From: Pelagomonas calceolata
Taxonomy: Eukaryota
Length of the DNA stretch: 64,000 nt
Direction of reading: 5' to 3'
Assembly: GCA_918797485.1 (NCBI GenBank)
Contig: CAKKNE010000001.1
Span: 930,001-994,000, forward strand
The stretch's first letter is position 1. The number at the start of each line of letters is the position of its first letter. Shown piece after piece: positions 8,484-56,919 of the stretch. The position numbers and the translations under genes were made by a program. The notes beneath the pieces were generated by a model. The model had not been told where the DNA came from, searched no databases, and saw only the letters and a list, made by a program, of their open reading frames with translations.

Positions 8484-8616
8484 GCTAGCGGCATGTAATA
8501 CACTAGCAGGACTCCTGCATCGGGGAGCTTATTCTCCATCGATGCGGGCGCGTCGATGGCGTATGGGGGAGCTCCGTTAAAATTATATGGTTCCTAGTGT
8601 CTTACATACCGCTAGC
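8484..8616. promoter_or_regulatory. Two inverted copies of the CTAG element in a divergent intergenic region
   Basis: 8484-8507 gctagcggcatgtaatacactagc and 8594-8616 ctagtgtcttacataccgctagc. Confidence 0.6.
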
Positions 8617-8726
8617 TAGCCAAAATAGCCATCGACGTAAAAATGAGGCTAGGGCTCGCGCTGATTGGCGCAGAAGCTATTACGCTCGCGCATTGATGCT
8701 ACAACCAAGCCTCGCTGCGAAAAACC

Positions 8727-9734
8727 ATGGCTAGCGGCTTAAAAATCATACTGCTCTGCACACTCTGCTGCTCAGCAGCTCTCAGCTTCGTCGCACCGAC
8801 GCCAGCGCTGCGCGGAACAACGCCGTCGATGCGACCATCGATGCGCCGAGTCAAACCTGCACAAGTTTTCCCACCCATTTGGCCATATGTCGGCTGCGAC
8901 GGCTGCGTCGGGGCGGGAGCGGCGGGCCTCTTCGTCGCGCTGGTCAGCACGGGCTTCGGTCTGCCCGTGTCCGAAGATGTGTTGCTGGTGTCGCTCGGCT
9001 CACGCCTCGGCGCCATGCGGCCGGCGACCCGCGCCGCGCACTGCGTCGCCGCGGTCGCGGGGTGCGCCCTCGCGGATGTTGCGACGGTCTCCCTCGGCTG
9101 CGCTTTGCGCGAGAACGAAGAGTCGCTGCGGGAACAGGCGCCCGGCTTCCTCGGCCGCCTGCTCCGCTCAATCGGCAGGCAGCTCGACAAGGAAACGCGG
9201 CGCGACGGTGCAAGATTATTCCGAGACCTGGAAGAGCGCCTCCGCGGCGCCGTCGACGGCCTGAAGCGGCTCGTTTCTGGTACTCCACCGCCGCCGCCGC
9301 CCCGCGACTGGATGAAAATGTTCGTGATGCGGCTGCGACGGCTCACGTGCAATACGCGGACGGCCCTCGCGCGCGCGGGCCAGGCGATCCAGGCCCTCAT
9401 GCCGCTGCGCAATGAAGACAGAGACGAGGGCCCGGCGGCGCTCGGCGCCCGGCTCCGCGCGTCGAGTGGACAGCGGTGGCCCCTCGCCCTCCTCGCCGGC
9501 CTCCGCGGGCCCGTCGACCGGCGGAAGTACGCTTTAGGCGCCGCCGCGGCCTGCGTGACCATGACGTTGCCCGCTCAACTCGCCCTCGGCGCTATCATCG
9601 GACCGTCGCGGCGAGGCATCGTGGCGCTCCATGTAGCCGTGGCCTGGGCCCAGCTGTGCCGGCAGGGCCCGCTCTGGGCGGCGATCGTCGTTGCCGTGAA
9701 GGACGAGGTGGGGGCGCGGCGGCGGCGTCTGTGA
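8727..9734 (+). CDS. DedA/SNARE-associated-like membrane protein, probably plastid-targeted
   Basis: Signal peptide + ALSF cleavage-like motif; GFGLPVSEDVLLV, LADVATVSLG. Confidence 0.6.
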   Translation: MASGLKIILLCTLCCSAALSFVAPTPALRGTTPSMRPSMRRVKPAQVFPPIWPYVGCDGCVGAGAAGLFVALVSTGFGLPVSEDVLLVSLGSRLGAMRPATRAAHCVAAVAGCALADVATVSLGCALRENEESLREQAPGFLGRLLRSIGRQLDKETRRDGARLFRDLEERLRGAVDGLKRLVSGTPPPPPPRDWMKMFVMRLRRLTCNTRTALARAGQAIQALMPLRNEDRDEGPAALGARLRASSGQRWPLALLAGLRGPVDRRKYALGAAAACVTMTLPAQLALGAIIGPSRRGIVALHVAVAWAQLCRQGPLWAAIVVAVKDEVGARRRRL

Positions 9735-9934
9735 TGTTAATTGACTTGTAGTTTCTCTTGGCACGTACTAGTAGATGATGCGAGAGGAACTCGTTTTTCT
9801 GGTGCGCGGCGTGCGCGGCTACTTTGGTGGTATTCATTGGACTTACTTCAGCTCGATCAAGCAGAGGGGAAGGGAAATGAGGAAGGGGCGGTCTTCTCCG
9901 CCGGCGCAAATTGGGTATGTACAGGCGCGCTCAC

Positions 9935-11767
9935 TTAGAGCAGCGCGGCGACCACCGCGATGAGAACGGCCCCGGACGCCGCCGCGCGCGTCGACGCGGC
10001 GTCGGCGTCCTTGCACGAGCAACTTCCGTCGCACGATCCGTCACAGTCACTGTTGCATTCCTCATCACAGCCCATGTTGCAGTTTTGGTCGCAGTCGTAG
10101 TTACAGCCGTAATCGTAGTCGTCGCAGTAATTTCCCTCGGAGTCTTCGTCGCAGTCTTCGTTACAACTGTCATCGCAACCCTCATTGCATTGGTCGCACG
10201 AGCCGTCGCAATTACTGTCGCACTGATACTCCTCGGTGGAGAGGCAGCCGTCCGCATCCGTCCAGGAGATCGCGATCTTCTGGCCGTCTTCGCAGTGGCT
10301 GCTCACCGCGCAGCCAAAATACTTGGTCGTCGCCGCGGTCGTCGGCGCCGCCACGTCCACGGTCTGCACCGACGTCGATGCCTTCTCCACGGCGCCGGCG
10401 AAGTTGCACGAATTGTAGTCGGCCTCGCTGGCAAACTCCCAGACGTCGTGGTTGTCGGTCCACGTGAACGTTACAGTGGTTCCAGCGGCAACAGTCAACG
10501 TGTTGGCGCTGGCCGACGGGTGCATGGCCTCCCAATTAACATCCGCCGTGGTGGCGCGGCGGCGCGTCGCGCCGGACACGAATGCGTACTCGTCGCACGC
10601 GCCCGCGTCGAGCACGGCGGGCTGCGAGCCCAGCGACTTCGGGGACTCAAACGTGGCTCGCACGGCATCGACAAACCGGTCGTCGTCCGCCAGAGCTTGG
10701 GCCAGGTCCTCGTCGCCGCCCAGCGCGTCGACGAGTGCCTTCGCGAGCGCATCGCGCTGCTGGTAGGCGTCGCGGCCGGGCACCGCCTGGCCGTTGTCGA
10801 AGCCTAGGGTCCACGTCGGGAACGCGCGGCGCCACGGCACGGCGCTCGCGTCGCCCGCGGCCTCGAGGGTCTTCAGGGCGCGTTTGGCTCGCGCGCGCCG
10901 CGTCGGCGGGGCCTTCTGGCCGCGAAATACTGAAAAGAGGCGCCGGTTCGCCCAGCCGCTCTCGGCGCCAAACAGCCCCGGGCGGTCGAGCAGCTCGTCG
11001 AAGACCCGGCGCCAGGTCACGCGCTTCAGGCCGACCGTGAGGTGGGCGCTGTCGTCGGTCGCGACGGCCGAGTGGGCGACGCCCTTCGGGAGGTATAGCG
11101 AGTCGCCGGGCGCGAGCACGTAGGTCTCGCAAGACAGCTCCGGCTCGTCGCGGAGCTCCTGCTCGAACTGCGAGCAGCCGTGGGAGCCGCGCTCCGCCTC
11201 CAGCAGCTCCGCGCGGAAGGCGGTGGAGGCGAACGGAGCCTTGTCATTCGACGGCGCGCAGACCTGCCACTCCTTCGACCCGCTGAGCTGGGCCACCAGG
11301 ACGTCCGTCGTGTCCGTGTGCGGCGGGAGGGCCTTGCCGCCGCTGCCGGTGACGTAGACGTGCATCGACGCCGCGGTCTTGAAGCGGTCGGCCACGTCGT
11401 GCCAGGCGCCGACCAGAGGGGCAGCCGCCGGCTCGGCGAGCGCGGCGTCGCTCAGCTTTTCGTACTTGACCACGAACGAGCCGCCGTCCTCGAGGTGGTG
11501 CGCGCAGCCCTCGTGGGAGCTGGGCATTTTCACCTTGTCGCCCGTGGGCGACCTAGCATCCGTGGCCGAGGCTGCGGCGTAGATGGACTGCGGCGTCGCG
11601 AGGTCCGCGAGCGCGGCCAGGTACGCGGCGTCGTCGGGCTGCGCCGCGGCGGGAATGAACAGGGGCTCATGGTCGAAAGCTTCATCAAACTCGGCCGGCA
11701 GCTGGGAGAAGAGCTTGCGCTGGGCATTTGCTGTGGTCAGCGCGACGGCGAGGAGCGTGCGGCGCAT
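9935..11767 (-). CDS. Secreted JmjC/cupin_4 oxygenase fused to cupredoxin domain and Cys-rich repeats
   Basis: Signal peptide; PHTDTTDVLVAQLSGSKEW, PGDSLYLPKGVAH; HDVW..YFGCAVSSHCEDGQK; CDxxC repeats; hydrophobic C-terminus. Confidence 0.82.
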   Translation of the reverse strand: MRRTLLAVALTTANAQRKLFSQLPAEFDEAFDHEPLFIPAAAQPDDAAYLAALADLATPQSIYAAASATDARSPTGDKVKMPSSHEGCAHHLEDGGSFVVKYEKLSDAALAEPAAAPLVGAWHDVADRFKTAASMHVYVTGSGGKALPPHTDTTDVLVAQLSGSKEWQVCAPSNDKAPFASTAFRAELLEAERGSHGCSQFEQELRDEPELSCETYVLAPGDSLYLPKGVAHSAVATDDSAHLTVGLKRVTWRRVFDELLDRPGLFGAESGWANRRLFSVFRGQKAPPTRRARAKRALKTLEAAGDASAVPWRRAFPTWTLGFDNGQAVPGRDAYQQRDALAKALVDALGGDEDLAQALADDDRFVDAVRATFESPKSLGSQPAVLDAGACDEYAFVSGATRRRATTADVNWEAMHPSASANTLTVAAGTTVTFTWTDNHDVWEFASEADYNSCNFAGAVEKASTSVQTVDVAAPTTAATTKYFGCAVSSHCEDGQKIAISWTDADGCLSTEEYQCDSNCDGSCDQCNEGCDDSCNEDCDEDSEGNYCDDYDYGCNYDCDQNCNMGCDEECNSDCDGSCDGSCSCKDADAASTRAAASGAVLIAVVAALL

Positions 11768-12026
11768 GGTATAATTTTTGGTTCTTTGTTAAGGCTGCCC
11801 CGACAGCACATTGGTGCAACTCGAATCGAGCGCGTGCGGGGCGCGCCGTCGGGCGCGGTCGAATGGAATATACGCTTCAGTAATCCTCCGACGACGAGGA
11901 TTCGTTCTCCTAGGGAAGGCGCCCCGTCGCGACGACGACCGCATCTGACGACCGCGGCCGCCGTGGCGCGGAGGAACTACAACTTGCAGCTTGATCGACG
12001 CTTAAGTAAGTCACCACACTAGTAAG

Positions 12027-13070: not shown

Positions 13071-13360
13071 TTTGCGTGGCTGAGACCAGGAGCGGCTGCT
13101 GGGCTGTGTTTCTCTGCGCGAGACGGCGTTTCGAGCCGTTTCTTTGCTCTGCCGATGAGTTTGATGGTCCCTGGTGCCAGCGGAGACGAGCAGTCGTTGC
13201 GGAGAGTCTCAGCGCGCCGAATTGGCAGCTTTAGCGGAGATGGCTGTGGAGAGCAGACCTCCATCTGAGAGAGCAGAGCTCCCGCATAAATTGACCCCTG
13301 CCATCCAAATTTCTCACGGGCGCCAAACAAGCATATCTGAAGCTGTCGGCATCGGCAAAA

Positions 13361-14071: not shown

Positions 14072-14074
14072 CCT

Positions 14075-19442: not shown

Positions 19443-21440
19443 TCAAAGTTGGTCGTCGATCGTCTTCAGCGCGTCCAATAGCGCGCCCTCGGGCCCGACC
19501 ATGGCCACCACGTGGTCCGTCGCCTCGTCACTCAAACCGCCCAAAGCCAGTAACGCCCGGAAGCCCTCGACGGCTCTTTCGTAAAGAACCTTGGCCGCCT
19601 TCCAGTCGCCGTTCTGATCACATTGCGCGCCCCGTTTGGACAGAGACGTACAGACGCCCATCGCCACGTCGCGAGAAGAAGGTAAATCAACAGCAGTAGC
19701 CCCGAGCATGTCTCGGCACGACGCGGCTCGTTCCACGATCGACTGGCGCGCGTCCTCCACTAGACTCAAAAGTTCGGCGGCCTTCGCTTCATTTTTATGA
19801 GGTACTAAGGCAGTAGCGACTCTCTTCAAACCTCGCAACGCTTCGCCATATAAGACCACGGCCTTGCCGGCCTCGCACTCGTCCTCACCAGATTTGACGC
19901 CGTCGGCCAAGCGAGATAGCGCGAAAGCCGCAAAAACTTGGACTCGATGGGCTTGGAGCGAAGTCGGATCGTCGACGACCACATAGCCTTGTAAGGTTAA
20001 TTCGTCGAGCGATCGTCCGTCGACGGTGGACGAGCGCTTCCGAGGAGAAGCTGCTGGAGGTGACGGCGTCTTCACCGGTGTGGGTGGCTCCGTCGGGTCC
20101 GACATGGATCGCATGCGTCCGAGCGACGCCTTCGCTGGCGAGTTCTGCGAGGCGAAAGGAGGGGGAGGAGGCCCTTTCCGCGCGGGCGTCGACGGCGTGG
20201 ACCTGTGCGGAAGTCAAAAGTTTTACGGCGCAGTGACGAATGGTTGATTCCACGCGGGCGCGGACCGCGGCGGCGTGGGCATTGACGGCTTCTTGAGAGA
20301 TGTCGGCGACCGCGGCGGCCGGCCCTCTATCTTCCGAGGCGTCGCGCGCGGCGACGACGAGGAGGACGAGACGAGGGCCGCGAACGGGGCCGAGGGCGAC
20401 TTGGGGGTCATGAAGGGCGGCGGTCTAGAAGCTAAGAGTGAAGACGCCGCGGCCGCGTTCGCCGCTCTCAGTATCGGAGACGCCAGCTTCTCGGGAGGTG
20501 AGGAAGATACTTCCGCGACCGGCGCCAGCGCAAAGGGGTCGCCCACGACTTGTGTAAGAGCACACCCGTTCACGAAGGGATCCCGAAAGAAGTCCTCGAA
20601 GGCGCACCGCTTCAAAGGGTCCCGCCGCAGCAGCTTCTGGAGGACATCCAGGCATTCTCTGGACACAGTCACGTCTTTTGGCAGCCGCAAGGCCTTCCGT
20701 CGGATGTTCCTCAGTAGATCCCGGTGGTCTCGCCCCGTGTAGGGCGGCCGGCCGGCGACCATCTCGAAGAGGACCGTGCCCGCGGACCAGAGGTCGGCTT
20801 TTGCATCATACCTCTTCAGAGCTAGGATTTCGGGAGCCATGTACAAGGGGCTTCCACAAAGGGTCTCCGCGAGTTTAGACGGTCCTAATTGCCGCGCAAA
20901 GCCGAAGTCGCCGATTTTTAACACACCTTGATCTGACGCCTCCGTCAACAGCAAGTTTTGTGGCTTGAGGTCCCGGTGGACCAAAGACCGGCTCCACAAA
21001 CATTCTAAACCAGCCGCGAGGTGGCCGATCCACTTTTGGGCCGTGCTTTCTTGCAGTCTACCTTTGCTCCGGATATATTTTTGCAGGTCGCCTCCGGCCA
21101 GAAACTCGAGCACGACATAAATACGCTCCGGTCGCGGCACCGCATCGACGAACGCCACCAAATTGGGATGTTTGACACTGCCAAGGATCTTGATCTCATC
21201 ATCCAAGTTGGCTCGCAGCTTTTTCGTGAGTCGGCTTCGATCGACGGCCTTGATCGCTACTGACTGGTTGTCCTTCGTGGCGAGCCAGACCGTGGCGAAG
21301 GAGCCCGTGCCGATCTGGCGCTCGACGGCGTAGCCCGGGCCGAGGTCCGTCGGCGGGCCGCCCTGCTGACTCTGAGTAGGTGGCGTGGCTGCAGGCGCTT
21401 TTTTGGCGGCTGGAGCCGCTGTTTTCGGCGCCTCAGCCAT
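19443..21440 (-). CDS. ATG1: ATG1/ULK-family Ser/Thr kinase; 63-bp introner-derived intron 20203-20265
   Basis: IGTGSFATVW, HRDLKPQNLLL, DFGFAR, LAETLCGSPLYMAPEIL; helical MIT-like C-terminus joined in frame after splicing. Confidence 0.85.
20203..20257 (-). mobile_element. Degenerate mini-introner (55 bp); TSD gcgtggac/gcgcggac
   Basis: Ends ctgtgcggaagtcaa ... ttgattccacgcgg; TSD copies at 20195-20202 and 20258-20265; shares aagttttacggcg with the 36162 copy. Confidence 0.8.
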
Positions 21441-21810: not shown

Positions 21811-23018
21811 ATGGCGTCCGTGGATAGCAACGACCTCTTCCCCGTGCGCACGATCAACTTTTTGGGCCGCGACGTGCCGACGCTCGGCCAGAACGAGTTC
21901 GGCCCCTGCGCGCTCTTAGGTGTCGTGAACGCGTTGCTGCTGCGCGGGACCCTGAAGATAAGTTCCGACCACGGCGCGCTGACGCTGCAGGACGTGCTCG
22001 CGCGCCTCGCGGATCGGATGATGGAGGCGAACCAGCGCGCCCAGGAGAGCTCGGACGAGGCGTCGCTGAACGTGCGCGCCGCGTTAGATGGGGCCGTGAC
22101 GCGCCTGCCGACGCTGGCGGAAGGGCTTGATGTCAATGTAAAGTTCAACGGCGGTTTTGAGTTCACGAGCGATCTGGCCATCTTCGATTTACTAGATGTG
22201 AGATTGGTCCACGGCTGGCGGGTGGATGGAGAGAACGATCCCGAGACGGCCGAAGCATTGGGTTCCCGGAGCTACAACGAGTGCATCCAGGAGGTTGTAC
22301 AGTTGCGGACGGACGAGCTCGAGGGCGCCGCGAAGCAACGGGCGGAGCTCGTGAGCGCGTTCCTCGAGCGCACCAAAACCCAACTCACCTACGCCGGCCT
22401 CGCGGAGATCCATTCCACGTTACGCGAGAACGAGGTCGGCGTGTTGTATAGAAACCTGCACTTTTCGACGGTGTTCAAGCGCGACGGCGTGCTCTATGCT
22501 CTAGTGACGGACATCGGCTGTCGGCGGCCGGCGTCCTTCTTTACTCGGGCATCGCGGCGATGGCGTGCCCTCACGCGACCCCCCGCGCAGACCGCCAGCA
22601 GAAGAACATCATCTGGGAGCGCCTCGACGACGTCGGCGGCGACACGGACTTCTGCGACGCGACGTTCAAACCCGCGGCGCCGACGAGCAGCGAGGACCCC
22701 GACCATTTGTTAGCGTTGCAGCTCGCGCGCGACGACGAGGCCGCGCGCGAGCGGGCGTCGGCGCCGCTACCGACCGCGGCCGCGACGGAGGTGACGCCGG
22801 CCAGCGCGCCAGGCGCGGCCACGGCGGACGCCGACGCGGCCCTCGCGCGGCAACTCCAGCGCGCGGAGGCGGACGCTGACGCTGCTTTGGCCAGACAGCT
22901 CCAGGCCGAGGAGGACGCGGCCGCGCGGAGCCGGCCGCCGCCGCCGCCGGCCGCCGCCCAGGCGCGGCCGCGGCGTCGACCGCCGAAGAAGTCGTCGTCG
23001 CAATGCGTCGTGGCGTAA
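21811..23018 (+). CDS. MINDY1/2-family deubiquitinase; intron 22520-22590
   Basis: QNEFGPCALLGVVNALLL, LVHGW, YRNLHFST; spliced LVTDIGY..IIWERL; MIU-like DAALARQLQ; CaaX end. Confidence 0.9.
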
Positions 23019-23118: not shown

Positions 23119-24059
23119 ATGCCTCTTTGCAACGTACAGAGAGAAGTCGGTCGACCCGGCCTCAGACTCCTGAGCGCTCATCTCAGCCAGCCAATCTACC
23201 TGGGACATCCGATCCACAAGGGCAACGGCGCGTCCTGCGGCTACGGGCTCGCGAACGCGTTGCTGTTCCTGTTCTTGTTGAATGCGGGCTTCTTCGCGAT
23301 GATCAACGCCGTCATTCCTTTAGTTATTATGAACGTGATTATTCTCGCTGTTGGTTTGTCGATCGTGCGCAACGCGTTGTGGGTCACAAATGCTAGATCC
23401 TACCCGGCGATGATGCTCGGGTTGATGTGCGTCCTCGCGAACTGGACGTTGAGCGGGGGCTACAACGAGAACGCGGCCTTCGTCGAGAAGACGCGGGGGC
23501 TGTGGAACCTCGCGGCGGGCGGCGGCATCATGAACGCGTTGATCATCACGGCGATCTTTAGTGATTTGATCGACCACCGCTACTGGCGCGCGGCGGCCTT
23601 CTGCTTCGTCGCGATCTGGCTGTCCATGTTCGGCACGGACCCGGCGTTTGATATGAACCTTGAACGTGACGCGGTCGCGGCGATGGCGTCGACGTGGCCG
23701 CACGAGCGTCGTTCCGCGCAGGAGTCATGCACTCGAACAACCTGCAGGGTCATAGTATCGGTGCCGACGGGCGCGCGACGAGAGGCGAAGTCACGTGGGC
23801 GGAACGGGCCCCGGGCAACGAGGGCTGGCGCTTCGCCATCGCCTACTCCGTGGTCTGTGCGGGCCTGATCGCGTCGCACTTCCTCCAGAAGGCCGGCCTC
23901 ACGGACCCGGTCATCGAGGACAAGCACGCCGCGGCCCTCGAAAAAACCATCTCCAAGGCCTCGGACGCGTCGAACTCGGGCAAGGACTTCTCGTTTGGCT
24001 CCGACGAGGTCCCGCCCGAGGTCAAGGACATGTCCACGGGCCACGCCATCTCGGCCTAG
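23119..24059 (+). pseudogene. C-terminal half of an NCS2/AzgA-like nucleobase permease; GC-AG intron 23633-23721
   Basis: PIYLGHPIHKGNGA..GY; spliced LSMFGVMHS; N-terminal half absent. Confidence 0.6.
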
Positions 24060-24227
24060 AGGCGGCGCAAGCTGTACATACTCCTCCCACGTCAAGTCAC
24101 ATGCTGCACATAGTCCCCGCGTCGACGTTCGCGTCCGCGTAATGAAAACTCTTATCGTAGCTATCTGGCGCCGCGTCGCGTCGATGGCGTTGGGGTGCGC
24201 CTCGACGCCGTGGCGAGCCCTCGGCCT

Positions 24228-26011: not shown

Positions 26012-26084
26012 ACGCCGTCGCGGCGATGGCGTGGTGGTGGGGGCCTGCAGTCTACCCCACCGGACGCCGTCGCGGCGATGGCGT
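26012..26084. repeat. Two copies of a 21-bp near-palindrome acgccgtcgcggcgatggcgt
   Basis: Copies at 26012-26032 and 26064-26084. Confidence 0.85.
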
Positions 26085-35968: not shown

Positions 35969-37538
35969 TTAGACAAAACCTCCTCCCTCACCGAACCACC
36001 CCGCTGCGCCGAGGCCACTCCGGTCGCCGCGTGCGATGGACGTCTGGCGCTCCGCCGATGGCACAGAAGTCTGCGCCGCGCTCCGGTTGTCCGGCGCGAC
36101 GCGCGGTGGTAATGCCACATCATCCCACGCCAGGTCGGCAAACACGGGCGCGTGATCGGACCTGTGTGGAAATCAACCAGTGGCGTCGGGTGCACCGACA
36201 ATTCTTCACTAAGTCATTTCTCGGCGATGCCGCGGCCGTCCTGGCTTGGTCGAGCGGTGAGGAACCGGCATCGCCACGCCATCGAGCAGGCGTCGCGTCG
36301 ATGGCGTGGAGGTCGACGCGATGATTCAGAACGAACGCGCCGTAAAACTTTGATTTCCACACAGGATCGGACAACGCCGACGGCACGCAGTCGTACGCTT
36401 TACAGGAGACGGCGTCGCCCCTCCATATAACCCGGTCGCACCACGCCGGCCGCCTATTTTGTTTATACCGCAAGGCGTCCTCGTCGTTCCTGATTAACTT
36501 ATAGGTCGGCGGGAACGCTAGATCCGCCTCCCTAAACCCCTCGAAGGCGTCTCCACTATCAATGGCATCGATTAATTGATCCCGCGACCGCAGCGTGTCC
36601 CAGTCCTCTTTCTCGATAGCATCGACGACGTCCCGCCAAATGTCCTCTTTGGGCGTCGCCGCCTTCTCCGGGCTACCCCCCGCTACCAGTTTTTCGGCGC
36701 CGGCCGTCGCGCCCGCGCCGACGGCCGCGCCACCCGCCACCGCCGCGCCGACGCCAACGACAGCCACACCCACGCCCGTCGCCACGGCCGCGGCGCCGCC
36801 CACCACCGCGCCCGCTACGACCGAGGCTCGCCTCGCGAAGGAAGGCGAGGGCGGCGGCGGCGCGTCGCCCTCATCTCCAAGCCGGTAGTTCAAATCGCCC
36901 TGCCAGATGACGACGTCCGCGTCTAGTACACCAAAACCCTCCGAGGGCACGGGGCCTATCAGCTGCCACAGTCTTGAGCCTCTTATAGCGTCGCCTAACG
37001 CCGAATGTTCCTCGGGAACACACCTCGTATTCACAATTTGCGCGTACTCGGCGTTCCTCGCCGCTACTTGATCCAAATCGGAAGCCATGTGCGCGTGGAC
37101 GACGTGGAAATATGTGGATTTGCACGGCGTCATTCGCATCACGACCGCACCTTTATTGCCGAGTGCGCCTCCTAGACTTCCGGTGGCGATGGTCGATACG
37201 TCCACACCTACCAAAGTATCGGGCTTGGCGAAGACGAAGAGGGCCACGCCCACGAGGCCGCCGGACGTGATCTCGGTGTAGGCATCACCCAACGCGTTTC
37301 GGCATTTGACGCGCCAGCTTTCTACCCTTCTCGTGCGGAAGACGCTGTCCGTTTTTATGGAATCTCTGAGTACCGTTCCTGGGTCCAGATCGACGACCTC
37401 CACCAGTCCACAGCAGACGACGTCCGCGTCCGTGGCGGTGAGTTGTGCCAGTATGCTATCGAGCCGCTCGGCGTCTTTCGCTTCTAAATGTTCTACATCT
37501 AGGCCGCAGACATTCCAGGTGAAGGTGCGGAGCTTCAT
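35969..37538 (-). CDS. Inositol polyphosphate 5-phosphatase; 211-bp introner intron 36162-36372
   Basis: TWNV, GNKGAV, WQGDLNYR, FPPTYK, PAWCDRVIW; splicing restores catalytic SDHAPV. Confidence 0.92.
36162..36364 (-). mobile_element. Introner element (203 bp), perfect 15-bp TIR, 8-bp TSD GATCGGAC
   Basis: ctgtgtggaaatcaa 36162-36176 / ttgatttccacacag 36350-36364; TSD copies at 36154-36161 and 36365-36372. Confidence 0.95.
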
Positions 37539-39910: not shown

Positions 39911-41730
39911 TCACTCGACGCGCGTCGCCGTCCGCCGGAGCTCCGCGAAGAGGTCGACGACCGGGGCCGCGGCGACAGGCTTCGGCGGTTTCTGCTTGGC
40001 GGCCTTGATCGCGTCGAGGAGACCTACAGGAGGCCCGGCGGAAGGCCCGTGCAGCCTTGCGACCATGGCGGCGCGCGAGCCGTCGCCGCCCGACAGCCGC
40101 CGCGGCGCGGGCCGCGCGACGCGCTCGCCCCAGGCGTCGCCCTCCGTTGGGACCTCCCGCGCCTTCCGCGCCTCGGCCACGGCGGCGAGCTCGGACGCGC
40201 GGTCCACCGCCTCGTCGTTTTTCGCGACGGCCGCAGCCGGCTCGTACGACGTCGCGTCAAACGGGAGCGCCGCGGCGTCGGCCCAGGCTTGAGGTCCAGC
40301 CGCACCGGACGCGGCGGCGGCGACCAACTTGTCTCGAATGGCCTCGGCCCACTCCTGTTTCTTTCCGTCGCCGTCGTTTTCCCACGCCGCCGGGAGCGAG
40401 GCGTATACGGCGCGCAGCTCGTCCAGGCTCAGGCCGCGCGCGTCGTAGGCGCCGCGTAAGTCCGCGACGTGCATTTTTGCGATCGTAGACGGCGCCATTC
40501 GCACGAGCCACAGGGCCCGGACTCGTAGCACGCGCGCCGCGAGCTTCGGGGGCAAACCCTGCTCGACCAGCCGCTCGACCGTCCAGCCGTGCCTCACGTC
40601 CGGCGGTACCGCCGCGCGGACCGTCGCGAGCGCCGTGGCATTCGCGTCGGCGTTCGCGGCGTCCCAGGCCGTCCGCCGCGCGGCCTGCTCCGCCACGTAC
40701 TCCGGGTGGCCGCGGACGACGGCGTCCCAGCGCTCGACTTCCACTTCGACGGACGCGTCTCCCGCGACGAGCTGCGCCACGGCATTCTTCAGGCACCGCC
40801 GCGCCTCGGCGAGCGTCATGGGTGCTGCTTCCTTGGCGTCGTCGGGGACGACGCCGCGGCACCGCTTTAGTACAGCCACGACGGCCTCGACCTCAGCTAC
40901 ATCCAAAGGGACGTCGCCGTTCCGCGCTTTCTTCAGCCACGCCGTCGCCGCCTTCTCGGCCTTCGACGACGGGCTGTTCGACGCGCGCAGCGGCGACAAC
41001 GCGTCGTCTTCTTTTTTACCGGTGAGCCCCGCCTCGATCTTCCTCGACAGCGCCTCATCATTCTCAACCCAGGCCGGCCGCGCCGCGCCGCACCAGCCGC
41101 CGCCGAGCATCTCCTTTCGTACGTCCGCGGCCCGCCTCTCCTGCGCCTCGCGCTTCTTCTGGCCGGCGCGCGCGGCGAGCTCCGCGGCGCGATTCAGCCG
41201 CGGTCGCACGGGCGCCCTAGCACGCGCAATGCTGGCGCGCCGCTTGAGGGCCTCGGCCTTCGACGGTTTTGCTTTCCCGATCGCGACGGACTGGCGGCGC
41301 GCGCGCGACGCGTTCGTGTCTCTTGGTTTGAGGGCGCGCTTCGTTCTACGAGCGTGGGCCTGCGTGCGGTCATGTGAGTTATCGCGGCGACGGCGTGGCG
41401 GAGACACCGGTCACGCGCAGTATGTTTCCCGACGCGCCGCAGGCAGCGCGTCAGCGTCAGGGCGGCGCGGCGCTCGCGGCGCGCCGCGAGCGTTTCTAGC
41501 CTCGCCGCGAGTTGCCGGAGGCGCGCCGGCGGGGGGTGAGCGTACGCGCAGTGCGTGACGGCCGCTTCTAGCAAGGTGAGTGCCGTGGCGCCGTCGACTT
41601 CTAAGAAGGTGAGGGCGTCCTGCTGCGGCGGCGGCGTCTGCTGTCGCAATGGCGGCGCGTCGTACACGGTTTCGTCGACGACGTCTTCCGCGATGGTAAA
41701 AGGGAGGCTCGCTGGAGTAGGCGCGAGCAT
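39911..41730 (-). CDS. Hypothetical coiled-coil protein; GC-AG intron 41360-41418
   Basis: Two ORFs joined by ACT|GCGCGT...CGCAG|GCC; LSLDELRAVYASLP..WENDGDGKKQEW. Confidence 0.65.
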
Positions 41731-42138: not shown

Positions 42139-44482
42139 CTACGACTCCTTACTCGACGATGGCGACCGCTCGAAGACGCGCATCCAGAGCCCGTGCTCCG
42201 TGTGGATCGTCGCGCCCGTGCGCATGCCCACGTCGGCGACGGGCAGGCCCCCGAGCCCCGTCTTCGGCTGGATCGATTCCGGATTTTTCAGCGCGAACTC
42301 GAAGTCGAGCTCGTGGATGATCGACGTCAGCATCACGGTAGCCTCCAAAATAGCGAACTGGTCCCCGACACACCTTCTGTTGCCCGCACCGAAGGGCAGA
42401 TACGCGTAATCGGCACTCTGCTCCGTCGGATACAGGGCTTGCGAGGGAATTTTGGCCGGGTCGAAGCCCCGCCAGCCCGCCGGCGCGTCGGGCCCCGGCT
42501 CCTTCTTGCGCTCCCACCTAGAAGGGTCAAAAGACTCAGGATCGTCCCACAGCTTCGGGTCCTTGTGCAGCGACCACGTGCTCATGAAAATGTCCGACCC
42601 TCGAGCTGGAGTTACTTTTGGGCTATCGGGGAACGGTCTAGGTAGTTCATCCGAATCCAAAGCTCGTCTGATGAGTAACGGAGGCTGGGGGTAGAGCCTC
42701 AGACCCTCCGCTAAACAGAGACGTATGAAGGGCACGTCCAGTACATCTTCGTACACTGATCCAGTCCTGTTCTCCGCCGCGCGCTTCGCGAACACGGCAT
42801 CGGCCTCCTCCCGAGCTCTTTGTAAATGATGCTTCGAGCGACCAGAGGGATGGAACAACTCGTACAGCGTCCAGGTTAATAAAGCTGCAGTCGTCTCGTG
42901 GCCGGCGACGAGCATCGTCATCAGATCGTCCCGTAACTGCGTCGCCGAGGCCTCCTCGCCGCGCACCGTCACGAGGAAGCGTAATAATGATGTATGCTTG
43001 ACTTCATCCTCATCAGTAACTTCTTGGCCGGCCTCCCTATAAACTTCGTCTCCCATGCTCGCGATGTCGTCGAAGGCCTTGGTCACGAGCTCTTCCAGCT
43101 TCGTGTTGAGCAGGTCGAGGTCGTTGTTGAACTCCTGCTGCGACGGGAGGAGCTGCGCGCCGGGGATGAGCCAGTACGGGATGAACGCCGTCGTGCGATG
43201 CTCCGCTTCCACCAAACATCTATAAACAGCCCTTACTAATGGAGACTCCGACGACGCACTTTCAAAGTCGTAGTCGAAGACGGCCCGCCCAATAATATCC
43301 AAAGCTGCCGAACAGAACCGTTCCTCCATGTCGACCGCGCCCGCCTTTCTCGCCGGCGCGTCGTCCTCGTACTTCCAGGCCTTCCACGCGTCGACGGTCT
43401 CCGGTAAAGGTGCAGTGGGATCCACGGACCGCGCTCGTTTCCGCAAGTCCACTAGCAGGTCCTCCGTGCAGTCGTCGAAAAGGGCCAACGTACTTCGCAA
43501 CCACTGCTTGTGGAAGGCCGGCGAGATGACGCGCCGCCGCGCCTTCCAGACGTCGGGGTCCGCTGGGATTAATCCATTACCTAGGATCGGCGCCAAGATC
43601 TCGGCCAGGATGCCTTTGTCGAAGTTCTGGCTTCCATCTCGGAGCAGGTATCGCGCAATGCTCGGGTCGGCCACAACTATAAAAGAGCGAGGCCCGAAGG
43701 CCAGTTTGAACACGGGCCCGAGCTCCCTATGGTACTTCGTGAGGAGTAGGAAGAGGGGACCCCCTACCAAAGTTTGTAGGTCGCCGGCCGCGACACTCCC
43801 AAAGAACGTCTTGGGGCCCGCCCTCTCCAGAGCTCCCTGCCAGTCCCAGGACGCCACCTCGGCACCGTCCTCCGAATCATTGCCCAGGATGAACTGGAGC
43901 AGGTTGTTGAATAAAATACGAAACGAGTCCTGGAAGCCCGGTTTACTTCCAGGATAGCTAGACTCGGCGTAGGCGGCGTAGACACTCTCGGGCTCGACCT
44001 CAATAAATCTTCGCCAGAACTTCGGGCCGCCGTACATCTCGGGCACGTCCTCGAGCTTCCGCCTGCGTGGAACGAGACCGTCGCGAAACTGCCCTCGCGT
44101 GACGACGCGCGTCGATGGCGTAAGGAAGGTCATTGAAGCTCCCACGCCGAGTCACTGACCTCAGTTTTTCCATTTCCCAGTCGAAGCCCTCCTTTTCGCC
44201 CTCCTCCTCCCAGGCCGAGGACCATTCTTCCATTAACGCTTGTTTGTACTTGTCGGCTTTCGCTTCCTTGAGGGCCTCCTCGTCCGTTCCTAATACACTG
44301 AGGCGCGTGCGGCCGGCGCGGCCGAGCGGGCCGCAGCGCCGTCGCGCCGGGCGCAAGTGGGGCGGCGGCGCGCCGCCCGCGCCGCGCGCCGGCCGGAGGC
44401 CCGCGCGGCGCGGCGGCGGCGCCAGGGAGCCCGCGAGGGGCGCCAGGGCCGCGCACAACGCGAGGATAGAAGAGCTACGCAT
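42139..44482 (-). CDS. Cytochrome P450, CYP97-family carotenoid hydroxylase; intron 44063-44159
   Basis: FDKGILAEIL, AGHETTAA, EGLRLYPQPP, PFGAGNRRCVGDQFA; plastid-type presequence. Confidence 0.92.
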
Positions 44483-45898: not shown

Positions 45899-47113
45899 AT
45901 GGCAGCAATCGCAGCGGACGTGGACGTCGAGCGCTCGTTGCGCAGCAGTGCCACTGGCACGACGCGCAGCGCGGCGGACGGCGCCGGCCGCGTGCCGGTC
46001 ATCGACATGAGTCAATCGGACGCCGCCGAGGCGATGTGGGCCGCCGCCACGTCCGTCGGCTTCTTCACGGTCGTCAATCACGGCGTGCCGGACGAGCTGA
46101 TCGAGAACGCGTTCGCCTCGTCCAAGCAGTTCTTCGCGCGCGACCTCGACGCCAAGCAGCGCGAGAGCCCCTTCGCGCCCCAACTCAACAGCGGCTTCGA
46201 GTACTTTTCTCAAATAAGGCCGTCGACCGGCACGGCCGACCAGAAGGAAAGTCTGCAGATCACGGCGCGGGAAGGAGCCATGGACGGCCGCTGGCCCGCG
46301 GAGCCCGAAGCGCTCCAGCCCGTCGCGCGGGCGATGATGGAGGCGTCACAAAGACTCGCGGCGCGCATCTTGGACATGCTCGAGCCGCGCGCGTGTCCGA
46401 ACCTCGCGCCCGGCACTTTACAAAAGTCTCACACGCTCTGGGGCCAGGGGGGCCAGTGCACGCTGCGACTGCTCCACTACCCCCCGACGGCGCCGCCGGA
46501 AGTTGATAGCGGCCTGTGGCGCGCCGGGCCGCACACGGACTGGTGCTGCGTGACCCTGTTGTACCAGCTGCCCGGTCCGCGCGCGGCGTCCGGTCCAATT
46601 TACGGGGTGTCGCGTCGATGGCGTAAACGCGGTCGACTCACCGACCCACCACGCACAGGTCACGAGGGGCTTGAGTGCGCCGCGAACCCGCGGGCGGGCG
46701 CCGGCCAGAGCGGGTGGCTTAGGGTGGATCCGGTCGCGGGCGGCGTCGCCGTGAATATAGGGGATATGCTCTCGCGCTGGGCTGTGTGGAAGTCAAACAG
46801 TGAGTTAGGTCATCGTGAACCTCCACGCCATCGAACAGCTGCAGTTACGGGGACGACGTCGCGGCGACGGCTTGGGGCGCCCGAAATTTGATTTCCACGT
46901 AGGCGCTGGGCCGACGGCCGCGTCCTCTCGAACCTGCACCGCGTGCGCACGCCGACGGGGGCAGAGTGCGGGCGGCCGCGCCAGTCGATCGCCTTCTTCA
47001 TGCAGGCCGACAAGGAGGCGCTCATCGAGTCGTCGGGCGAGACGATCACCGCGGGCGACTACATCCTGGGACGAATCCGGTCGAACTTCGCGGCGAAGTT
47101 CGGAGATAAATAG
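45899..47113 (+). CDS. 2OG-Fe(II) dioxygenase (IPNS/DIOX-like); introns 46575-46658 and 46774-46902
   Basis: VPVIDM, GFFTVVNHGV, LRLLHYP, HTD; spliced NIGDMLSRWADGRVLSNLHRV..RQSIAFF. Confidence 0.92.
46782..46902 (-). mobile_element. Introner element (121 bp), inverted relative to the 53545 copy; TSD GCGCTGGG
   Basis: ctgtgtggaagtcaa...ttgatttccacgtag; TSD copies at 46774-46781 and 46903-46910; reverse complement matches the 53545 element. Confidence 0.92.
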
Positions 47114-47123
47114 ACTGTGAATA

Positions 47124-48200: not shown

Positions 48201-48371
48201 TATTTATGCCGCGTCGATGGCGTGCTTGCCCTGCAGGCCAGCAATCACTGCTTCTACGCGTCGCACGATGCCGCAGCTACAGCAGCGCGATCAGTTATTG
48301 CCCGTCACGCAATGCGTGCCGGTTTTGCGCGAGTATACGAGGCTATTCCCGCAAAGGCCGCGGCGCAGACA

Positions 48372-48398
48372 GCTAGCGGCATGTAACACACTAGCAAG
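48372..48398. promoter_or_regulatory. Conserved CTAG element (reverse orientation)
   Basis: gctagcggcatgtaacacactagcaag. Confidence 0.55.
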
Positions 48399-49516: not shown

Positions 49517-49537
49517 CACTAGATCACACACCACTAC

Positions 49538-52102: not shown

Positions 52103-52574
52103 GGCTGGCTGCCCTCCTCGGTGAGCGCCGCCCGGCTGCCCGCTTGTGTTCGTTGCGAGCCGCTGCTCGTGTTCTACGTGTGCGGCATGCTAGCCTTCAT
52201 CGCGCGCGCTCTGGCGTCGTCTGGCGTCTGGCAAACCAAAATCACTGTGCACCTGATTTGAGATGTTTAGCGGCGCGCGAGGCCTCGCGGTCTGCGGGCG
52301 ATACTCGTGATCGTAAGTATGCGTCCATCAGACTCGCTGGGATTTGCTCCAAAAACTCTAGAGCTCGAATCTAGCGTGTCGCCTCGAGCTCATCAGCTGC
52401 TCGACGCGTGACGCAGCGCATCGATCGTGCATCGCCGGGTATCGATAGCGCATCGCACCGGCTGGTACTGCTCGGCGGCGTCGCAGATCGGAAACCGCTG
52501 GCATCTATATTGCGCAAATCACTGCAGTGGCCTCACGCAGCTGACGCCGTCGGCGCGCAGACAGCATCACAACG

Positions 52575-54384
52575 ATGCTCCGAACAGCCGGCCGCATTAT
52601 AACAAGACGCGTCGCGCCGGCCACGGGCGCCACTCTGGCCGTAGGCTCCGCGGCCTTTTACGCGAGCGACCCCAAAACCGCGTCTAGAACGTATGTTTTG
52701 TTGACGGAGATGGCGCCCGTGATTCTAGCGTATCGGTTCGTCGAGAAGAAGCAACAAATACGGCGATATCTAAACCACGAGAACCCGCGACTGGAAGATG
52801 CCGAGTGGGAGTCACTACATAACAAGTACGCCAAAAGTACGGTAGATACGATGCGGCGCATGTTAGGATCGTATGTCAAACTAGGACAGTTTTTGGCGTT
52901 GCGGCCGGACATTGTCCCACAAGTCTGGACCGATGAGTTACGAACGCTGGAATCTGCCGTGCCCGCGCAAAGTACGGAATTAGTCCACGAGACCATACAA
53001 AGAGCCTACGGGAAGAATGTGAGCGAAGTTTTCGCGACCTTTGACGACAAACCCGTCGGGAGCGCGTCCATCGGCCAGGTCCACAAAGCTACATTAAAAG
53101 ACGGCACTCGCGTGGCAGTAAAGGTCCAGTACGGTGCCGGCAACGAACAAGTGATGAGGAATGACATCAAACACGGCAAGGAGCTGTTTAAGTGGCTCGC
53201 TCCCGAACAAGTCGCCGTCCTCGACGAGGTCGAGGCGCAGTTCGCGACCGAGTTCGACTACCGCCGGGAGGCGTCCCATTTGTCAGCAGTCAGAAATAAT
53301 CTACGAAAGGCGGGTTTCCTGGGCAGTTGGTGGCGGAGAGGTGTCGTCGATATTCCAGAACCGATCAGCGAGATGTGCACGAAGGAAGTGCTGGTGATGA
53401 AATTTCTCGAGGGCGACAATTTGGTCGACGGCATCCGAGCACTCGGCGAGCGCGCGGCTCGTAGGCAAGGCCTCACGTTAGATGACTTGAAAAGAGATAT
53501 GTTGATAAATTTTGAGCGCGAGGGCTACCCGGAGCCGTACAGTACTGTGTGGAAATCAAATTTCGGGCGCCCACGCCATCGACGCGATGTCGTCCCCGTA
53601 ACTGCATCTGCTCGATGGCGTGGGGATTCTACGCCATCGACGCGACGTTGACCACGTAACTGCGGCAGCTCTATGGCGTGAGAACTCAACTGGTTGATTC
53701 CCACACAGGTACAGTGGGCCGTCCCCGTTCGTCATCGAGGCGTACCGCTACGCCGATCGCGTGAAGTGCTCGCTCGTGAACGTGGGCGTGCTTTTACGAA
53801 GAAGAGTGTTAGGTCACGACGTGGCGTACGCGGAACCGTTGCTGACGGATTTTAACCCCGCGCGCGTCATGTCGACGTTGTGTCGGGTGCACGGCCACGA
53901 GCTGTTGAAGGATGGTTTGTTTAATGGAGATCCTCATGCTGGTAACTTCCTACTGTTACGAGATGGGCGCATAGGCTGCATCGACTACGGCCAGGTGAAG
54001 AAGCTCACGACGGAAGAGCGCCACTGGCTCTGCAAAGTTTATTTGGCGTTGCGCGACGACGACGCGGATCGATTAAGAGCACTAGCGAAGGAGATCGGCA
54101 TGCGAACGAGGTACAACCTCGACTACACGCGGCAAAAAATGCTCACTTTCGCGCTCGATAGAGATGGAAGGGACGTCACTGACGGCCTGAATTTCCAGCA
54201 GTTCCTCGACAAGATGTTCGCGGCCGACCCGTGGGATGAAGTCGTGCCGGTGGTCATCATGCCTTCTCGCTTGTGCATGTTTCTGCGAGGTATTGGATTG
54301 ATGATGGACCACCCTTTATCATTGGTGAAGGAGTTCGCGCCGATCGCGGAAAGGGTGCTGCGCGAGGAGGGCGTCGATTTTTAG
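52575..54384 (+). CDS. ABC1/UbiB/ADCK atypical kinase; 172-bp introner intron 53537-53708
   Basis: YVKLGQFL, GSASIGQVH, VAVKVQ, EFDYRREA, FNGDPHAGN, IDYGQVK. Confidence 0.92.
53545..53708 (+). mobile_element. Introner element (164 bp); TSD GTACAGTA/GTACAGTG
   Basis: ctgtgtggaaatcaa...ttgattcccacacag; TSD copies at 53537-53544 and 53709-53716. Confidence 0.93.
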
Positions 54385-54395
54385 TGTATGTTAAC

Positions 54396-55127
54396 TTAGA
54401 TTACTTTCCCTTCCCCGCTCCTACCGGCTTCCTCGTCCGCGGCGTCGGCCGCGCTCATCGTGTCCTTGTCGTCGGATTTGTTCGGCGCGTCCGCCGGCAC
54501 GGCCGAGGGCGACACGATGATGCGAAACGAATTGTGCGGCGCGCCGTCCTTCTTCGCGTAGACGCACGCCTCGAGGCGATCCCCGAAGCCCATCTGCGAC
54601 AACGGCTCGACGACCTCCTGATCTAAGAAAGTAGCAGGGTCTGAATTGAAATCGGGCAACAAACAAAGAATACCACTATCTTCTTTTTCATCTTTAAATA
54701 GTTCAGCCAAAGCGGGCCACACCGTCTCCGACACTGCCACTTCATCAGAACCGCCACAAACTCTCGAGTGGGAAATGGCCAGCATCTTCCGGCCCTCTTC
54801 GATGAAGTCGTCAAATTCATCGCCGAGCGGCGCCGCTTCATCGGTGTAGTCGGCCATCATGGACTTCTTCATCAACTCGGTGTGCATGTAGTCGACGAGC
54901 GCGGAAATCTTCTTCTGGTCGTCGAGCGAGTTGTCCGGCAACGCGTCGCCAGCGTAACTCTTGAGCGCGCCGTCCGTCACACCGTCGTAGAACAGCTTGG
55001 CGGCGCTCCGGTCGGCCAGGAAGCTGTCGAGGGAGGCCTGCAGCCTGGTCCGCGGCCTCGCCGGCGTGGCGCGCGGCACGAGCGCGACGGCGCCGCCGAT
55101 GACCAGTAATGCGGTTGGTCGTCGCAT
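54396..55127 (-). CDS. Hypothetical protein, probably plastid-targeted
   Basis: Signal + transit-like N-terminus, acidic globular body. Confidence 0.65.
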   Translation of the reverse strand: MRRPTALLVIGGAVALVPRATPARPRTRLQASLDSFLADRSAAKLFYDGVTDGALKSYAGDALPDNSLDDQKKISALVDYMHTELMKKSMMADYTDEAAPLGDEFDDFIEEGRKMLAISHSRVCGGSDEVAVSETVWPALAELFKDEKEDSGILCLLPDFNSDPATFLDQEVVEPLSQMGFGDRLEACVYAKKDGAPHNSFRIIVSPSAVPADAPNKSDDKDTMSAADAADEEAGRSGEGKVI

Positions 55128-55281
55128 TTTGACGAGCAATGCTGGACGTATTGCGCGCCAGCACCCAGCCTTGCCAGCTTGCGTTTTTGGGAGCGCCAGT
55201 TGACTCGTCTCTTTTCGAGGCTAAACGTCTTCGAGAGACAAAACCATTCCTCTATTCGTATGAAACTCTAAATTTTTTAAA

Positions 55282-55299
55282 GCTAGTGTCTTAAGCTAG
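55282..55299. promoter_or_regulatory. Conserved CTAG element
   Basis: gctagtgtcttaagctag in a divergent intergenic region. Confidence 0.5.
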
Positions 55300-55443
55300 A
55301 GTTTCAAGCCTTCCACATCGACTCAAAAGCAGCTTGCCCGCCGCTCTCGCACGCCTGGTTACGCACTCCACGAGCTATCGATTGGAGCCATGCGCAGCGC
55401 TGCGACGACGCCGCACGATTCCACTCGTCCTGGCAGGAGCTCC

Positions 55444-56719
55444 ATGTTGCCCAGCCTGCTGCTCCTCGCGACGACGAGCGCCCTCGTCCTGCCGCCACGA
55501 GCAGCACCGACGCACACAAAACTCCGAGCAGCGGTCCTCGACCCCTTGAATGCGGAGGACCTCGGGGATAGTGCCACGGTCCCGGAGCTCGCCGAGGCCG
55601 TCGCGCACAAGGGCGCCGCGGACGTCACCGCGTTATCCTTACTGGAAGAGATCCGGGGCCTGAAGTTCTTTTCGCTCTACTCCATTGATCTACTCGCAAA
55701 TTGCGCGTATTTGGGCGGGGCGCCCGAAGAGTGCGAATTCGACGCATGTGAGGTCCTACCGGTCGACCCCGTGCCTCTGCACCTCATGGAGCGCGACCGG
55801 AAGGAGCGGGGTTTCGAATTGGATGCCTGGGCGCGCTTCGACCTGCCTTCTGAAGATTATTATGATTTGGAGGAGTATCCCGAGGGCTATACTGGTTATG
55901 ATGGGAGTAGCGTGTGGAAGTTTTTGTACGAGAACCTAACCTTCGGCAAGGAAGCGATCGAGGAAGAAAACGACCCGAACGGCTGGCACAACGTCTTCGA
56001 CAGAGCTGTCAGTGGGTTGCATGCGTCGATCGCGTGCCACGTCGTCGACGACTACTCGGGTCCGCGGGCCAGTGTCTGACGCGTCACCGCGACCGCCCGC
56101 GCTCCACGCCATCGCCGCAACCCATCCCCGCGCAGACGACGACGACGAGTGCGCCGCGGAATACAAGAGGCGTATTGCTTGCGATCCGGAACGACTGTCG
56201 AACCTGCGCTTCGCCTTCGCGATCGTATTAGCTGGAGTGAGGGAGTCGAAACAGGCGATGCAAAAAACCCGTTTTGACGAGGATGCGAAGATCGACGCGT
56301 CGACGCGGGAACTCGTCCAGGGCTTGTTTGACGACCACTCCTTCATGGACGGCGAGAACATCAAGCGGGTCGCGCCGTTACTGCGAGCCGCGGCAGCCCA
56401 AGCGTCGGAGTGCTCCGTGTTGACCAATGAGGACGACGACGAGTGGCTCGAGGAGACGGGCGTCTGGCAGGTGCGGCAGCGCTCTCGAGCGGTATTGCGC
56501 CTCTTCGACTGCGTGCAGTGCGGCGCGTGCCGCATCCACGGCAAGGTGGCTTGGTTCGGGGTCGCGACGGCTCTGAAACTCATCTACTCGGACGCGTCGA
56601 CGCGGCCACTCTGTCGGGTGGAAGTGGCGGCTCTGTTGACGACTCTCGCAAAGCTAGCAACAGCGGTACGCTTCGCGGAGGAGATGGAGGAGATATGTTG
56701 CGAGCAGGCGGCGGCGTAA
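55444..56719 (+). CDS. ERO1-like oxidoreductin; intron 56060-56135
   Basis: YYDLEEYPEGYTGYDG..VW, VSGLHASI, PERLSNL, FDCVQCGACRIHGKV. Confidence 0.85.
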
Positions 56720-56919
56720 GTGTTATTATGGTAGTTGTTTCCCGGTCGCCGCGACGGCGCGAGGGTGACGCCATCGCCGCGACAGCGCGTCGACTGACTG
56801 ACTACTAGCCGACGCGACTCTCGGAGGTAGTTCTCTCTTACGGTCCTAGCTTCCAGCAGGCTCAACAACAGGCCAACGTGACCGGCATGGGGCTCGGCGA
56901 CGATGGCTTCGTGGTCGAC

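What the first reader, a model, noticed from the sequence alone, without database searches (positions are those of the whole stretch)
8549..56785. ACGCCATCGACGCG motif shared by introners, ordinary introns and intergenic DNA
Exact copies (either strand) occur at 8549, 24177, 36294, 44108, 46611, 48210, 53573 and 53631. Variants occur in introns 22520-22590, 23633-23721, 41360-41418 and 56060-56135, in the 46782 introner, and at intergenic 26012/26064, ~42103 and ~56768. Many TIR-less introns therefore carry the introner's internal motif. Either they are eroded introners, or the motif is a selected CpG-dense linker or methylation signal supplied wherever coding sequence cannot provide one.
Basis: partly seen in the sequence, partly recalled or inferred. 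Interest (0 to 1): 0.7.

Follow-up and report, generated by a model that had tools for sequence, protein, structure and literature searches.

The report
Intron-transposon box that outlives its carrier
A 14-letter DNA word sits inside this marine alga's intron-making transposons and also survives intact in many ordinary introns and gaps between genes where little or no transposon trace remains, so it is likely a protein-binding site that the transposons spread and the genome keeps.

Summary
In detail: all 8 exact copies are at the stated places (15 with up to 1 mismatch; 0.24 expected). The window is from a pelagophyte alga, likely Pelagomonas. The word is the internal box of two 203-bp introner types (15-bp TIRs, 8-bp TSD), found in 120 marine metagenome loci. 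Plain erosion does not explain the TIR-less copies. Outside intact elements (259 kb) the motif's 12-mers occur 24-25 times and other internal introner words 0-3 times, a 7-fold excess after dosage correction. 24 of 27 perfect copies have flanks unlike the introner, and variation falls mainly on two positions. Unselected deleted introners keep the box more often than expected (13 of 15 against 6-8). 2 of 6 TIR-less introns show faint introner remnants. The box is richest in introns and near gene 3' ends, in both orientations within introns. A generic CpG-linker signal got little support from sequence. Best reading: a DNA-level, likely protein-bound site, seeded by introners and preferentially retained. 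No binding protein, methylation or nucleosome data could be tested. New variant of a known kind.

The parts
36162..36364 (-). Full-length (203 bp) type B introner: 15-bp TIRs, 8/8 TSD, one exact motif (36294-36307) and an inverted half-site (36276); intron 36162-36372 with the donor in the TSD
53545..53708 (+). Type A introner, internally deleted (164 bp), TIRs, TSD 7/8, two exact motifs (53573, 53631) and an inverted half-site; intron 53537-53708 in an ABC1 kinase gene
46782..46902 (-). Type A introner derivative (121 bp), TSD 8/8, degenerate motif 46860-46873 and half-site 46825; lies antisense in intron 46774-46902 of a + strand 2OG-Fe(II) oxygenase gene
20203..20265 (-). Eroded introner intron (63 nt), TSD 7/8, 3' TIR 13/15, motif deleted; shows that the motif is not obligatory
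   Evidence: RNA joint skipping 63 nt in 45 reads and 2 contig sets
22520..22590 (+). TIR-less intron in a MINDY deubiquitinase gene; C-variant motif at 22553, antisense
   Evidence: Pfam profile 3-238 then 241-264 across it; one RNA-guess contig runs into it unspliced
23633..23721 (+). Putative TIR-less intron (GC donor); C-variant motif at 23676, antisense
   Evidence: frame change and splice signals; no homology or RNA proof
41360..41418 (-). Putative TIR-less intron (GC donor); motif with 2 changes at 41383, sense; faint type A remnant outside the motif
   Evidence: p=0.003 against shuffles
44063..44159 (-). TIR-less intron in a cytochrome P450 gene; exact motif at 44108, sense; faint type A remnant, 3' end 10/15 like the TIR
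   Evidence: homologues continuous across the junction; p=0.01
46575..46658 (+). Putative TIR-less, in-frame 84-nt intron in the 2OG-Fe(II) oxygenase gene; exact motif at 46611, antisense
   Evidence: splice signals and a recalled family motif only
56060..56135 (+). TIR-less intron in an ERO1 gene; motif with 2 changes at 56106, sense
   Evidence: Pfam profile 98-177 then 190-352 with a frame change
8549..8562 (-). Exact motif between two outward-facing promoter-like boxes of a divergent gene pair
24177..24190 (-). Exact motif about 120 nt after a stop codon in a tandem gap
26012..26084 (.). Two C-variant motifs (26019, 26071, - strand), each overlapped by an inverted half-site (26012, 26064), 52 nt apart, after a stop codon
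42104..42117 (+). C-variant motif about 25 nt after the stop codon of the - strand P450 gene
48210..48223 (-). Exact motif 9 nt before a likely start codon (5' region)
56745..56781 (.). C-variant motif (56768, +) with an inverted degenerate partner in a convergent gap

Best explanation
The 14-16 bp box (ACGCCRTCGMCGCG) is carried in two to four whole or half copies by the alga's TIR introners, and it is likely a strand-independent protein-binding DNA site that these elements would seed into new introns and gene 3' flanks and that is preferentially kept while the rest of the element erodes. Shown: it is the shared core of both 203-bp introner types; copies shrink by internal deletion; the box is kept more often than a random-deletion model predicts; outside elements it is the top non-coding word, with a sharp 5' edge and two main variable positions. 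Inferred: that most TIR-less copies were seeded by older introner insertions; that retention is due to selection or to protection by a bound protein; that a protein binds it at all. Whether the transposon captured a host site or the host adopted a transposase site is open.
For: Both types share the core though otherwise unlike. Outside intact elements (258,819 non-redundant nt) the 3 motif 12-mers occur 24-25 times; the 257 other internal words average 0.45 (max 3) and TIR words 5-6; outside/inside ratio 2.06 against 0.31 and 0.29. 24 of 27 TIR-distant perfect (A or C form) copies have flanks no closer to the introner than random DNA. The 33 single-change copies in non-coding DNA are uneven: 10 at position 6, 9 at position 10, none at 2-4 or 8-9 (chi-square p about 1e-5). 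ACGCCATC is the most over-represented non-coding 8-mer, 52 against 4.8 expected. 13 of 15 unselected deleted introners keep the box against 6.4-7.7 expected, P about 0.001. In 120 read-through copies of type B the motif and its inverted half vary 3.5% and 2.2% against 7.7% elsewhere. Density per 10 kb: short same-strand gaps 53, convergent 13, long same-strand 8, divergent 3.3; coding 1 A and 2 C forms in 182 kb. Orientation to the host gene is even: 32 sense and 33 antisense among 65 callable of 112 TIR elements, 3 and 3 in the six window introns. Seeding: 6 of 8 TIR-less introns that I called in the window carry it; 2 of the 6 keep faint type A remnants; intermediates exist (20203-20265, L070, L079).
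Against: No binding protein, footprint, methylation or nucleosome data. 4 of 6 TIR-less introns show no introner remnant and none has a convincing TSD at the donor, so seeding is unproven for most. Some spliced or TIR-bounded relics lack the box (20203-20265, L057, and a third TIR family), so it is not required. Conservation within type B is only about twofold and one other window is as conserved. The deletion test has n=15, assumes evenly placed deletions, and neighbours of the query elements may be related. Sites cluster (31 of 77 within 100 nt of another), which also fits local duplication. The metagenome loci were chosen for TIR plus motif, mix populations, and were classed by my own rough coding model. 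No diverged orthologous pair covered a TIR-less 14-mer.
Confidence: 0.5

Rival explanations
1. The box is an old host cis-element that arises and is kept independently of introners; the introners merely captured it, and introns gain it on their own.
For: Flanks of 24 of 27 copies are unrelated to introners; the C variant is common outside but rare inside elements; the genome has other long, strict non-coding boxes.
Against: A 14-mer is hard to create repeatedly by point change (inference); the extreme enrichment in short introns and the remnants in 2 of 6 introns are simpler under seeding.
Confidence: 0.2
2. The box is re-written by a mutational process (repair-templated insertion, slippage or conversion from the roughly thousand element copies) and survives where non-coding DNA tolerates it; no function.
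For: Sharp 5' edge with a tapering 3' end; tandem arrays (L024) and inverted pairs; scarce in promoters and coding DNA.
Against: Does not explain why only this part of the element is copied, nor the recurrent A/C and A/G alternatives; no such process is shown here.
Confidence: 0.13
3. All TIR-less copies are neutrally eroding introners.
For: Intermediates exist; deletion is the main decay route; about 4 of 25 outside words are explained this way; ILE decay into ordinary introns is reported in fungi (PMC3609843).
Against: 7-fold excess over TIR and other internal words; perfect core with random flanks; uneven change spectrum.
Confidence: 0.1
4. The box is a generic CpG-dense linker or methylation signal supplied wherever coding sequence cannot give one.
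For: 4 CpG in 14 nt; the six introns have 0.155-0.20 CG per base against 0.141 in coding DNA; DNMT5 and linker methylation are reported for the related Aureococcus (PMC9998398 passages).
Against: One specific word is enriched, not CpG-rich words in general; no CG periodicity or raised CG flanks; most gaps lack it (16 of 108 3' ends); only weak or no CpG-decay signature in elements.
Confidence: 0.07

Closest known systems
TIR/TSD introners of pelagophytes (956 putative IEs in Pelagomonas calceolata, PMC9481584; families surveyed in PMC9860276)
   Same: About 200-bp elements with TIRs, GT or GC donors, AG acceptor carried at the element end, donor taken from the TSD; depth suggests roughly 900 copies (a rough figure).
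   Different: The passages read describe ends only, no internal motif and no motif outside elements. The published logo is a figure that I could not see, so identity with the published family is inferred, not checked.
MITE-amplified transcription factor sites in plants (E2F, bZIP60, PIF3, TCP; PMC5950925, abstract read)
   Same: A short non-autonomous TIR element carries several copies of a 10-16 bp word and spreads it.
   Different: Here the carrier becomes a spliced intron, the word is scarce in promoters and rich in introns and 3' flanks, most perfect copies lie outside recognisable elements, and no factor is known.
Degenerating introner-like elements in fungi (PMC3609843, passages read)
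   Same: Introners shorten and become like ordinary introns.
   Different: Fungal ILEs lack TIRs and TSDs (PMC9860276), and no retained internal box is described in the passages read.
Subterminal transposase-binding repeats of 8-bp-TSD DNA transposons such as hAT and P (recalled, no call)
   Same: Repeated short words on one arm, kept in deletion derivatives.
   Different: Would not by itself explain perfect copies far from any TIR; no autonomous element was looked for.

Membership tests
TIR/TSD introner (for the three TIR elements) | Terminal inverted repeats | tested here: met
   13-15 of 15 at each end
TIR/TSD introner (for the three TIR elements) | Target site duplication | tested here: met
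   8/8, 8/8, 7/8 in the window; 82 of 123 TIR pairs with 6 or more of 8, redundant and mis-paired ones included
TIR/TSD introner (for the three TIR elements) | Many dispersed near-identical copies, recent mobility | tested here: met
   120 loci; 1005 read-through proteins; present in L038 and absent in orthologous L107
TIR/TSD introner (for the three TIR elements) | Spliced out of mRNA | tested here: inconclusive
   Frames rejoin cleanly; RNA joint shown only for the relic 20203-20265; tables cut for the others
Eroded introner (for the six TIR-less introns) | Residual TIR, TSD or internal similarity outside the motif | tested here: inconclusive
   2 of 6 with p of 0.003 and 0.01, 4 of 6 none; no TSD at the donor
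Eroded introner (for the six TIR-less introns) | Absent from orthologues | tested here: inconclusive
   One intron only: P0003 (87% identical, 21-kb contig) is continuous across the 44063 junction, but may be a spliced model
MITE-borne transcription factor site | Over-represented word inside a MITE | tested here: met
MITE-borne transcription factor site | Bound by an identified factor | not testable with these tools
   no binding data
Splicing (branch-site) box | Fixed strand relative to the transcript | tested here: not met
   32 sense, 33 antisense; 3 and 3 in window introns
Dnmt5-type methylated linker | Periodic CG clusters at nucleosome spacing | tested here: not met
   no periodicity in sequence; a weak test, since methylation can be periodic without a sequence signal
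Dnmt5-type methylated linker | Dense 5mC between nucleosomes | not testable with these tools
   no methylome or nucleosome map available
Subterminal transposase site | Autonomous partner with the same ends and repeats | not tested
   no whole genome held

The most novel reading that the evidence does not exclude
Introners in this alga deliver a functional chromatin-organising site: each new intron is born with a binding box for a host (or domesticated transposase) protein, the box is kept by selection after the transposon has eroded, and a large share of the genome's 'ordinary' introns are old introners held in place by it, so the box dates and marks transposon-born introns.
Probability: 0.25. 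Interest if true: 0.78.

Novelty: new variant of a known kind. Interest (0 to 1): 0.5.

Why it matters
Whether ordinary introns descend from old introner bursts, and why new introns persist, are open questions that are hard to test because eroded introners lose all likeness. A box that outlasts the element would be a tag for transposon-born introns and a candidate reason for their retention, in one of the most abundant oceanic picoeukaryote lineages. It is directly testable with the existing genome, nanopore signal and population metagenomes.

Tried and rejected
No whole genome is held, so genome-wide counts were replaced by the window plus 120 metagenome loci. TIR-plus-motif pattern: 0 hits in viral and prokaryote collections; hairpin pattern 0 in viral contigs. 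Rfam: no match in the window. CG autocorrelation showed only a detrending artefact. An EM motif fit drifted to GC-rich DNA and was discarded. A 3'-end polarity looked strong at first (0 of 11 sense in long same-strand gaps) but was not significant when counted per gene end (8 antisense-only, 4 sense-only, 4 both, of 108; p=0.39; tandem gaps 6 against 1): kept as a lead only. My first A/B sorting was faulty and was redone by alignment. Retention figures are biased by my search pattern and were not used; the unselected set was. From the 23 unselected elements I left out 4 full-length or near full-length ones, 3 of a third TIR family and 1 duplicate insertion before the count of 15. L067:201, counted among the 27, proved to be part of a longer TIR element. 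RNA lays were swamped by repeat reads. Orthologous loci were too few or too alike. Aureococcus models hint at an intron near the 44063 junction but do not fix its place. A likeness of the core to the YY1 site is recalled only and was not pursued. Earlier findings of this scan held nothing on this genome.

Full report
Observation. Six of the 7 one-mismatch sites share one change, A to C at position 10.

Organism. The window is 63.6% GC and gene-dense. A P450 gene has its closest named relatives in Aureococcus (70%) and Chrysophaeum (68%), with closer unnamed ones at 72-94%. This is a pelagophyte; Pelagomonas calceolata (63% GC, 956 putative introners with TIRs and GT/GC donors; passages of the preprint and of the PMC9481584 supplement) is the likely species, by inference.

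The carrier. Three elements have 15-bp TIRs and 8-bp TSDs (36162-36364, 46782-46902, 53545-53708), with the donor in the left TSD and the acceptor in the TIR end. A scan of marine metagenomes for TIR plus motif returned 120 loci, 232 kb. They hold two types, both 203 bp when whole: type A (79 distinct copies) with a duplicated 58-bp unit, hence two motifs and two inverted half-sites, and type B (38 copies) with one of each. Most copies are internally deleted. One insertion is present in L038 and absent in orthologous L107, and one has different deletions in L025 and L090. A read-through translation of type B finds 1005 database proteins. A 63-nt relic with decayed TIRs and no motif at 20203-20265 is spliced in RNA.

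Are the TIR-less copies just eroded introners? With intact elements masked, 258,819 non-redundant bases remain. The three motif 12-mers occur 24-25 times there; 257 other internal words average 0.45 (174 are absent) and TIR words 5-6. Relative to their dose in 19 unselected elements the ratios are 2.06, 0.31 and 0.29; the masking is somewhat biased against TIR words but not against other internal words. Of 27 perfect copies far from TIR ends, 3 have flanks like the introner and 24 do not. Among 33 single-change copies in non-coding DNA, 10 fall on position 6 and 9 on position 10, none on 2-4 or 8-9. Anchored on its inner part, the word starts sharply at position 1 and tapers over 2-3 bases at its 3' end. 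Neutral decay would spread changes evenly and leave flanks readable at this low divergence (inference). Yet some descent is visible: with the motif masked and gaps allowed, introns 41360-41418 (p=0.003) and 44063-44159 (p=0.01) resemble type A, while the other four do not; none has a TSD at the donor.

Is the box kept preferentially? Among 23 TIR elements found by chance in the loci and window, 15 are independent deleted A/B copies; 13 keep the box against 6.4-7.7 expected under evenly placed deletions (P about 0.001 or less). In 120 type B read-throughs not chosen for the motif, it and its inverted half vary 3.5% and 2.2% against 7.7% elsewhere, a modest effect. It is not obligatory: a third TIR family and some relics lack it.

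Where it lies. By my own coding model, ACGCCATC is the top non-coding 8-mer (52 against 4.8). Per 10 kb: short same-strand gaps 53 (12 sites in 2,260 nt, some being degenerate introners), convergent gaps 13 (12 in 9,020), long same-strand gaps 8 (11 in 14,053), divergent gaps 3.3 (8 in 23,909); coding DNA has 1 A and 2 C forms in 182 kb. Of 8 TIR-less introns that I called in the window, 6 carry it; that list is not exhaustive and was partly guided by the finding. Three of the six are backed by homology; one RNA-guess contig runs into 22520-22590 unspliced. Orientation to the host gene is even (32 against 33), so it is not a splicing box. 31 of 77 non-coding half-sites have a neighbour within 100 nt, in all three arrangements.

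The CpG-linker idea. DNMT5 and linker methylation are reported for Aureococcus (PMC9998398 passages; the primary papers by Huff and colleagues were not held and are recalled). I found no CG periodicity and no raised CG around the sites, only a weak CpG-decay signal in type A and none in type B, and the box at 16 of 108 gene ends. The six introns are CG-richer than coding DNA, which is mild support. Methylation was not testable.

Mechanism. Shown: carriage by introners, decay by deletion, biased retention, a bounded and position-specific word, strand independence. Inferred: seeding of most TIR-less copies by older insertions, selection or protection as the cause, and protein binding. I give this 0.5; an independent host site captured by the element 0.2; mutational re-writing 0.13; neutral erosion 0.1; generic CpG signal 0.07.

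Known and new. Introners here are known (PMC9481584 passages and supplement text; PMC9860276 passages, section 7 and a supplement search without a match to the TIR or motif strings, file cut when stored). Introner decay into ordinary introns is described in fungi (PMC3609843 passages) and MITE-spread factor sites in plants (PMC5950925 abstract). A full-text search for the motif gave one unrelated Drosophila paper (listing only); searches pairing Pelagomonas with introner or with motif and promoter showed no description of it. Figures, one scanned supplement and subscription papers were not visible, so a prior mention cannot be excluded. Verdict: real, a new variant of a known kind, interest 0.5.

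Noticed in passing
window 900, 8496, 8594, 24233, 31907, 34725, 37766, 48384, 55283, 59313: A strict 25-bp promoter-like box (CTAGTGTCTTAC, four variable bases, GCTAG). All 29 sites in window and loci are non-coding, 16 in divergent gaps facing a gene; high DNA depth over 48371-48398 suggests many genomic copies.
   Followed up: partly
window 11793, 15003, 26295, 31874, 33023, 33151, 52107, 52134, 57507, 59355: GGGCAGCC is an oriented 5' element: 33 of 40 non-coding sites have a same-strand gene downstream and none lies in a convergent gap.
   Followed up: partly
L016:2212-2272, L024:544-610, L044:142-200: A third, short introner family with related TIRs (one end reads like CAGTGCATAAATCAA) and 7-8/8 TSDs that lacks the motif.
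   Followed up: partly
L024:3136-3225: A tandem run of about five imperfect copies of the 14-mer, like a minisatellite.
   Followed up: no
window 36162-36364, 53545-53708 and loci: Both unrelated-looking introner types are exactly 203 bp when whole, which hints at a length constraint, perhaps one nucleosome repeat (inference). Type B folds far better than shuffles, z = -5.1, largely through its TIRs.
   Followed up: no
window 56048-56143: A 7/8 repeat lies 12 nt before the donor of intron 56060-56135 and at the next exon start, the spacing reported for Aureococcus sp. introners that add four codons (PMC9860276); it lies in GAC repeats and may be chance.
   Followed up: no
window 33380 and 48210: Two copies end 9-10 nt before a likely start codon.
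   Followed up: no
window 3700-4070: A TPR-containing C-terminal domain that is multi-copy: 74-82% DNA matches in three unrelated loci.
   Followed up: partly
window 36162-36364 in RNA reads: Introner sequence is abundant in poly(A) RNA reads on both strands (depth about 800-900 in that bin against 10-90 elsewhere), pooled from many copies: retained or UTR-borne introners are common.
   Followed up: no
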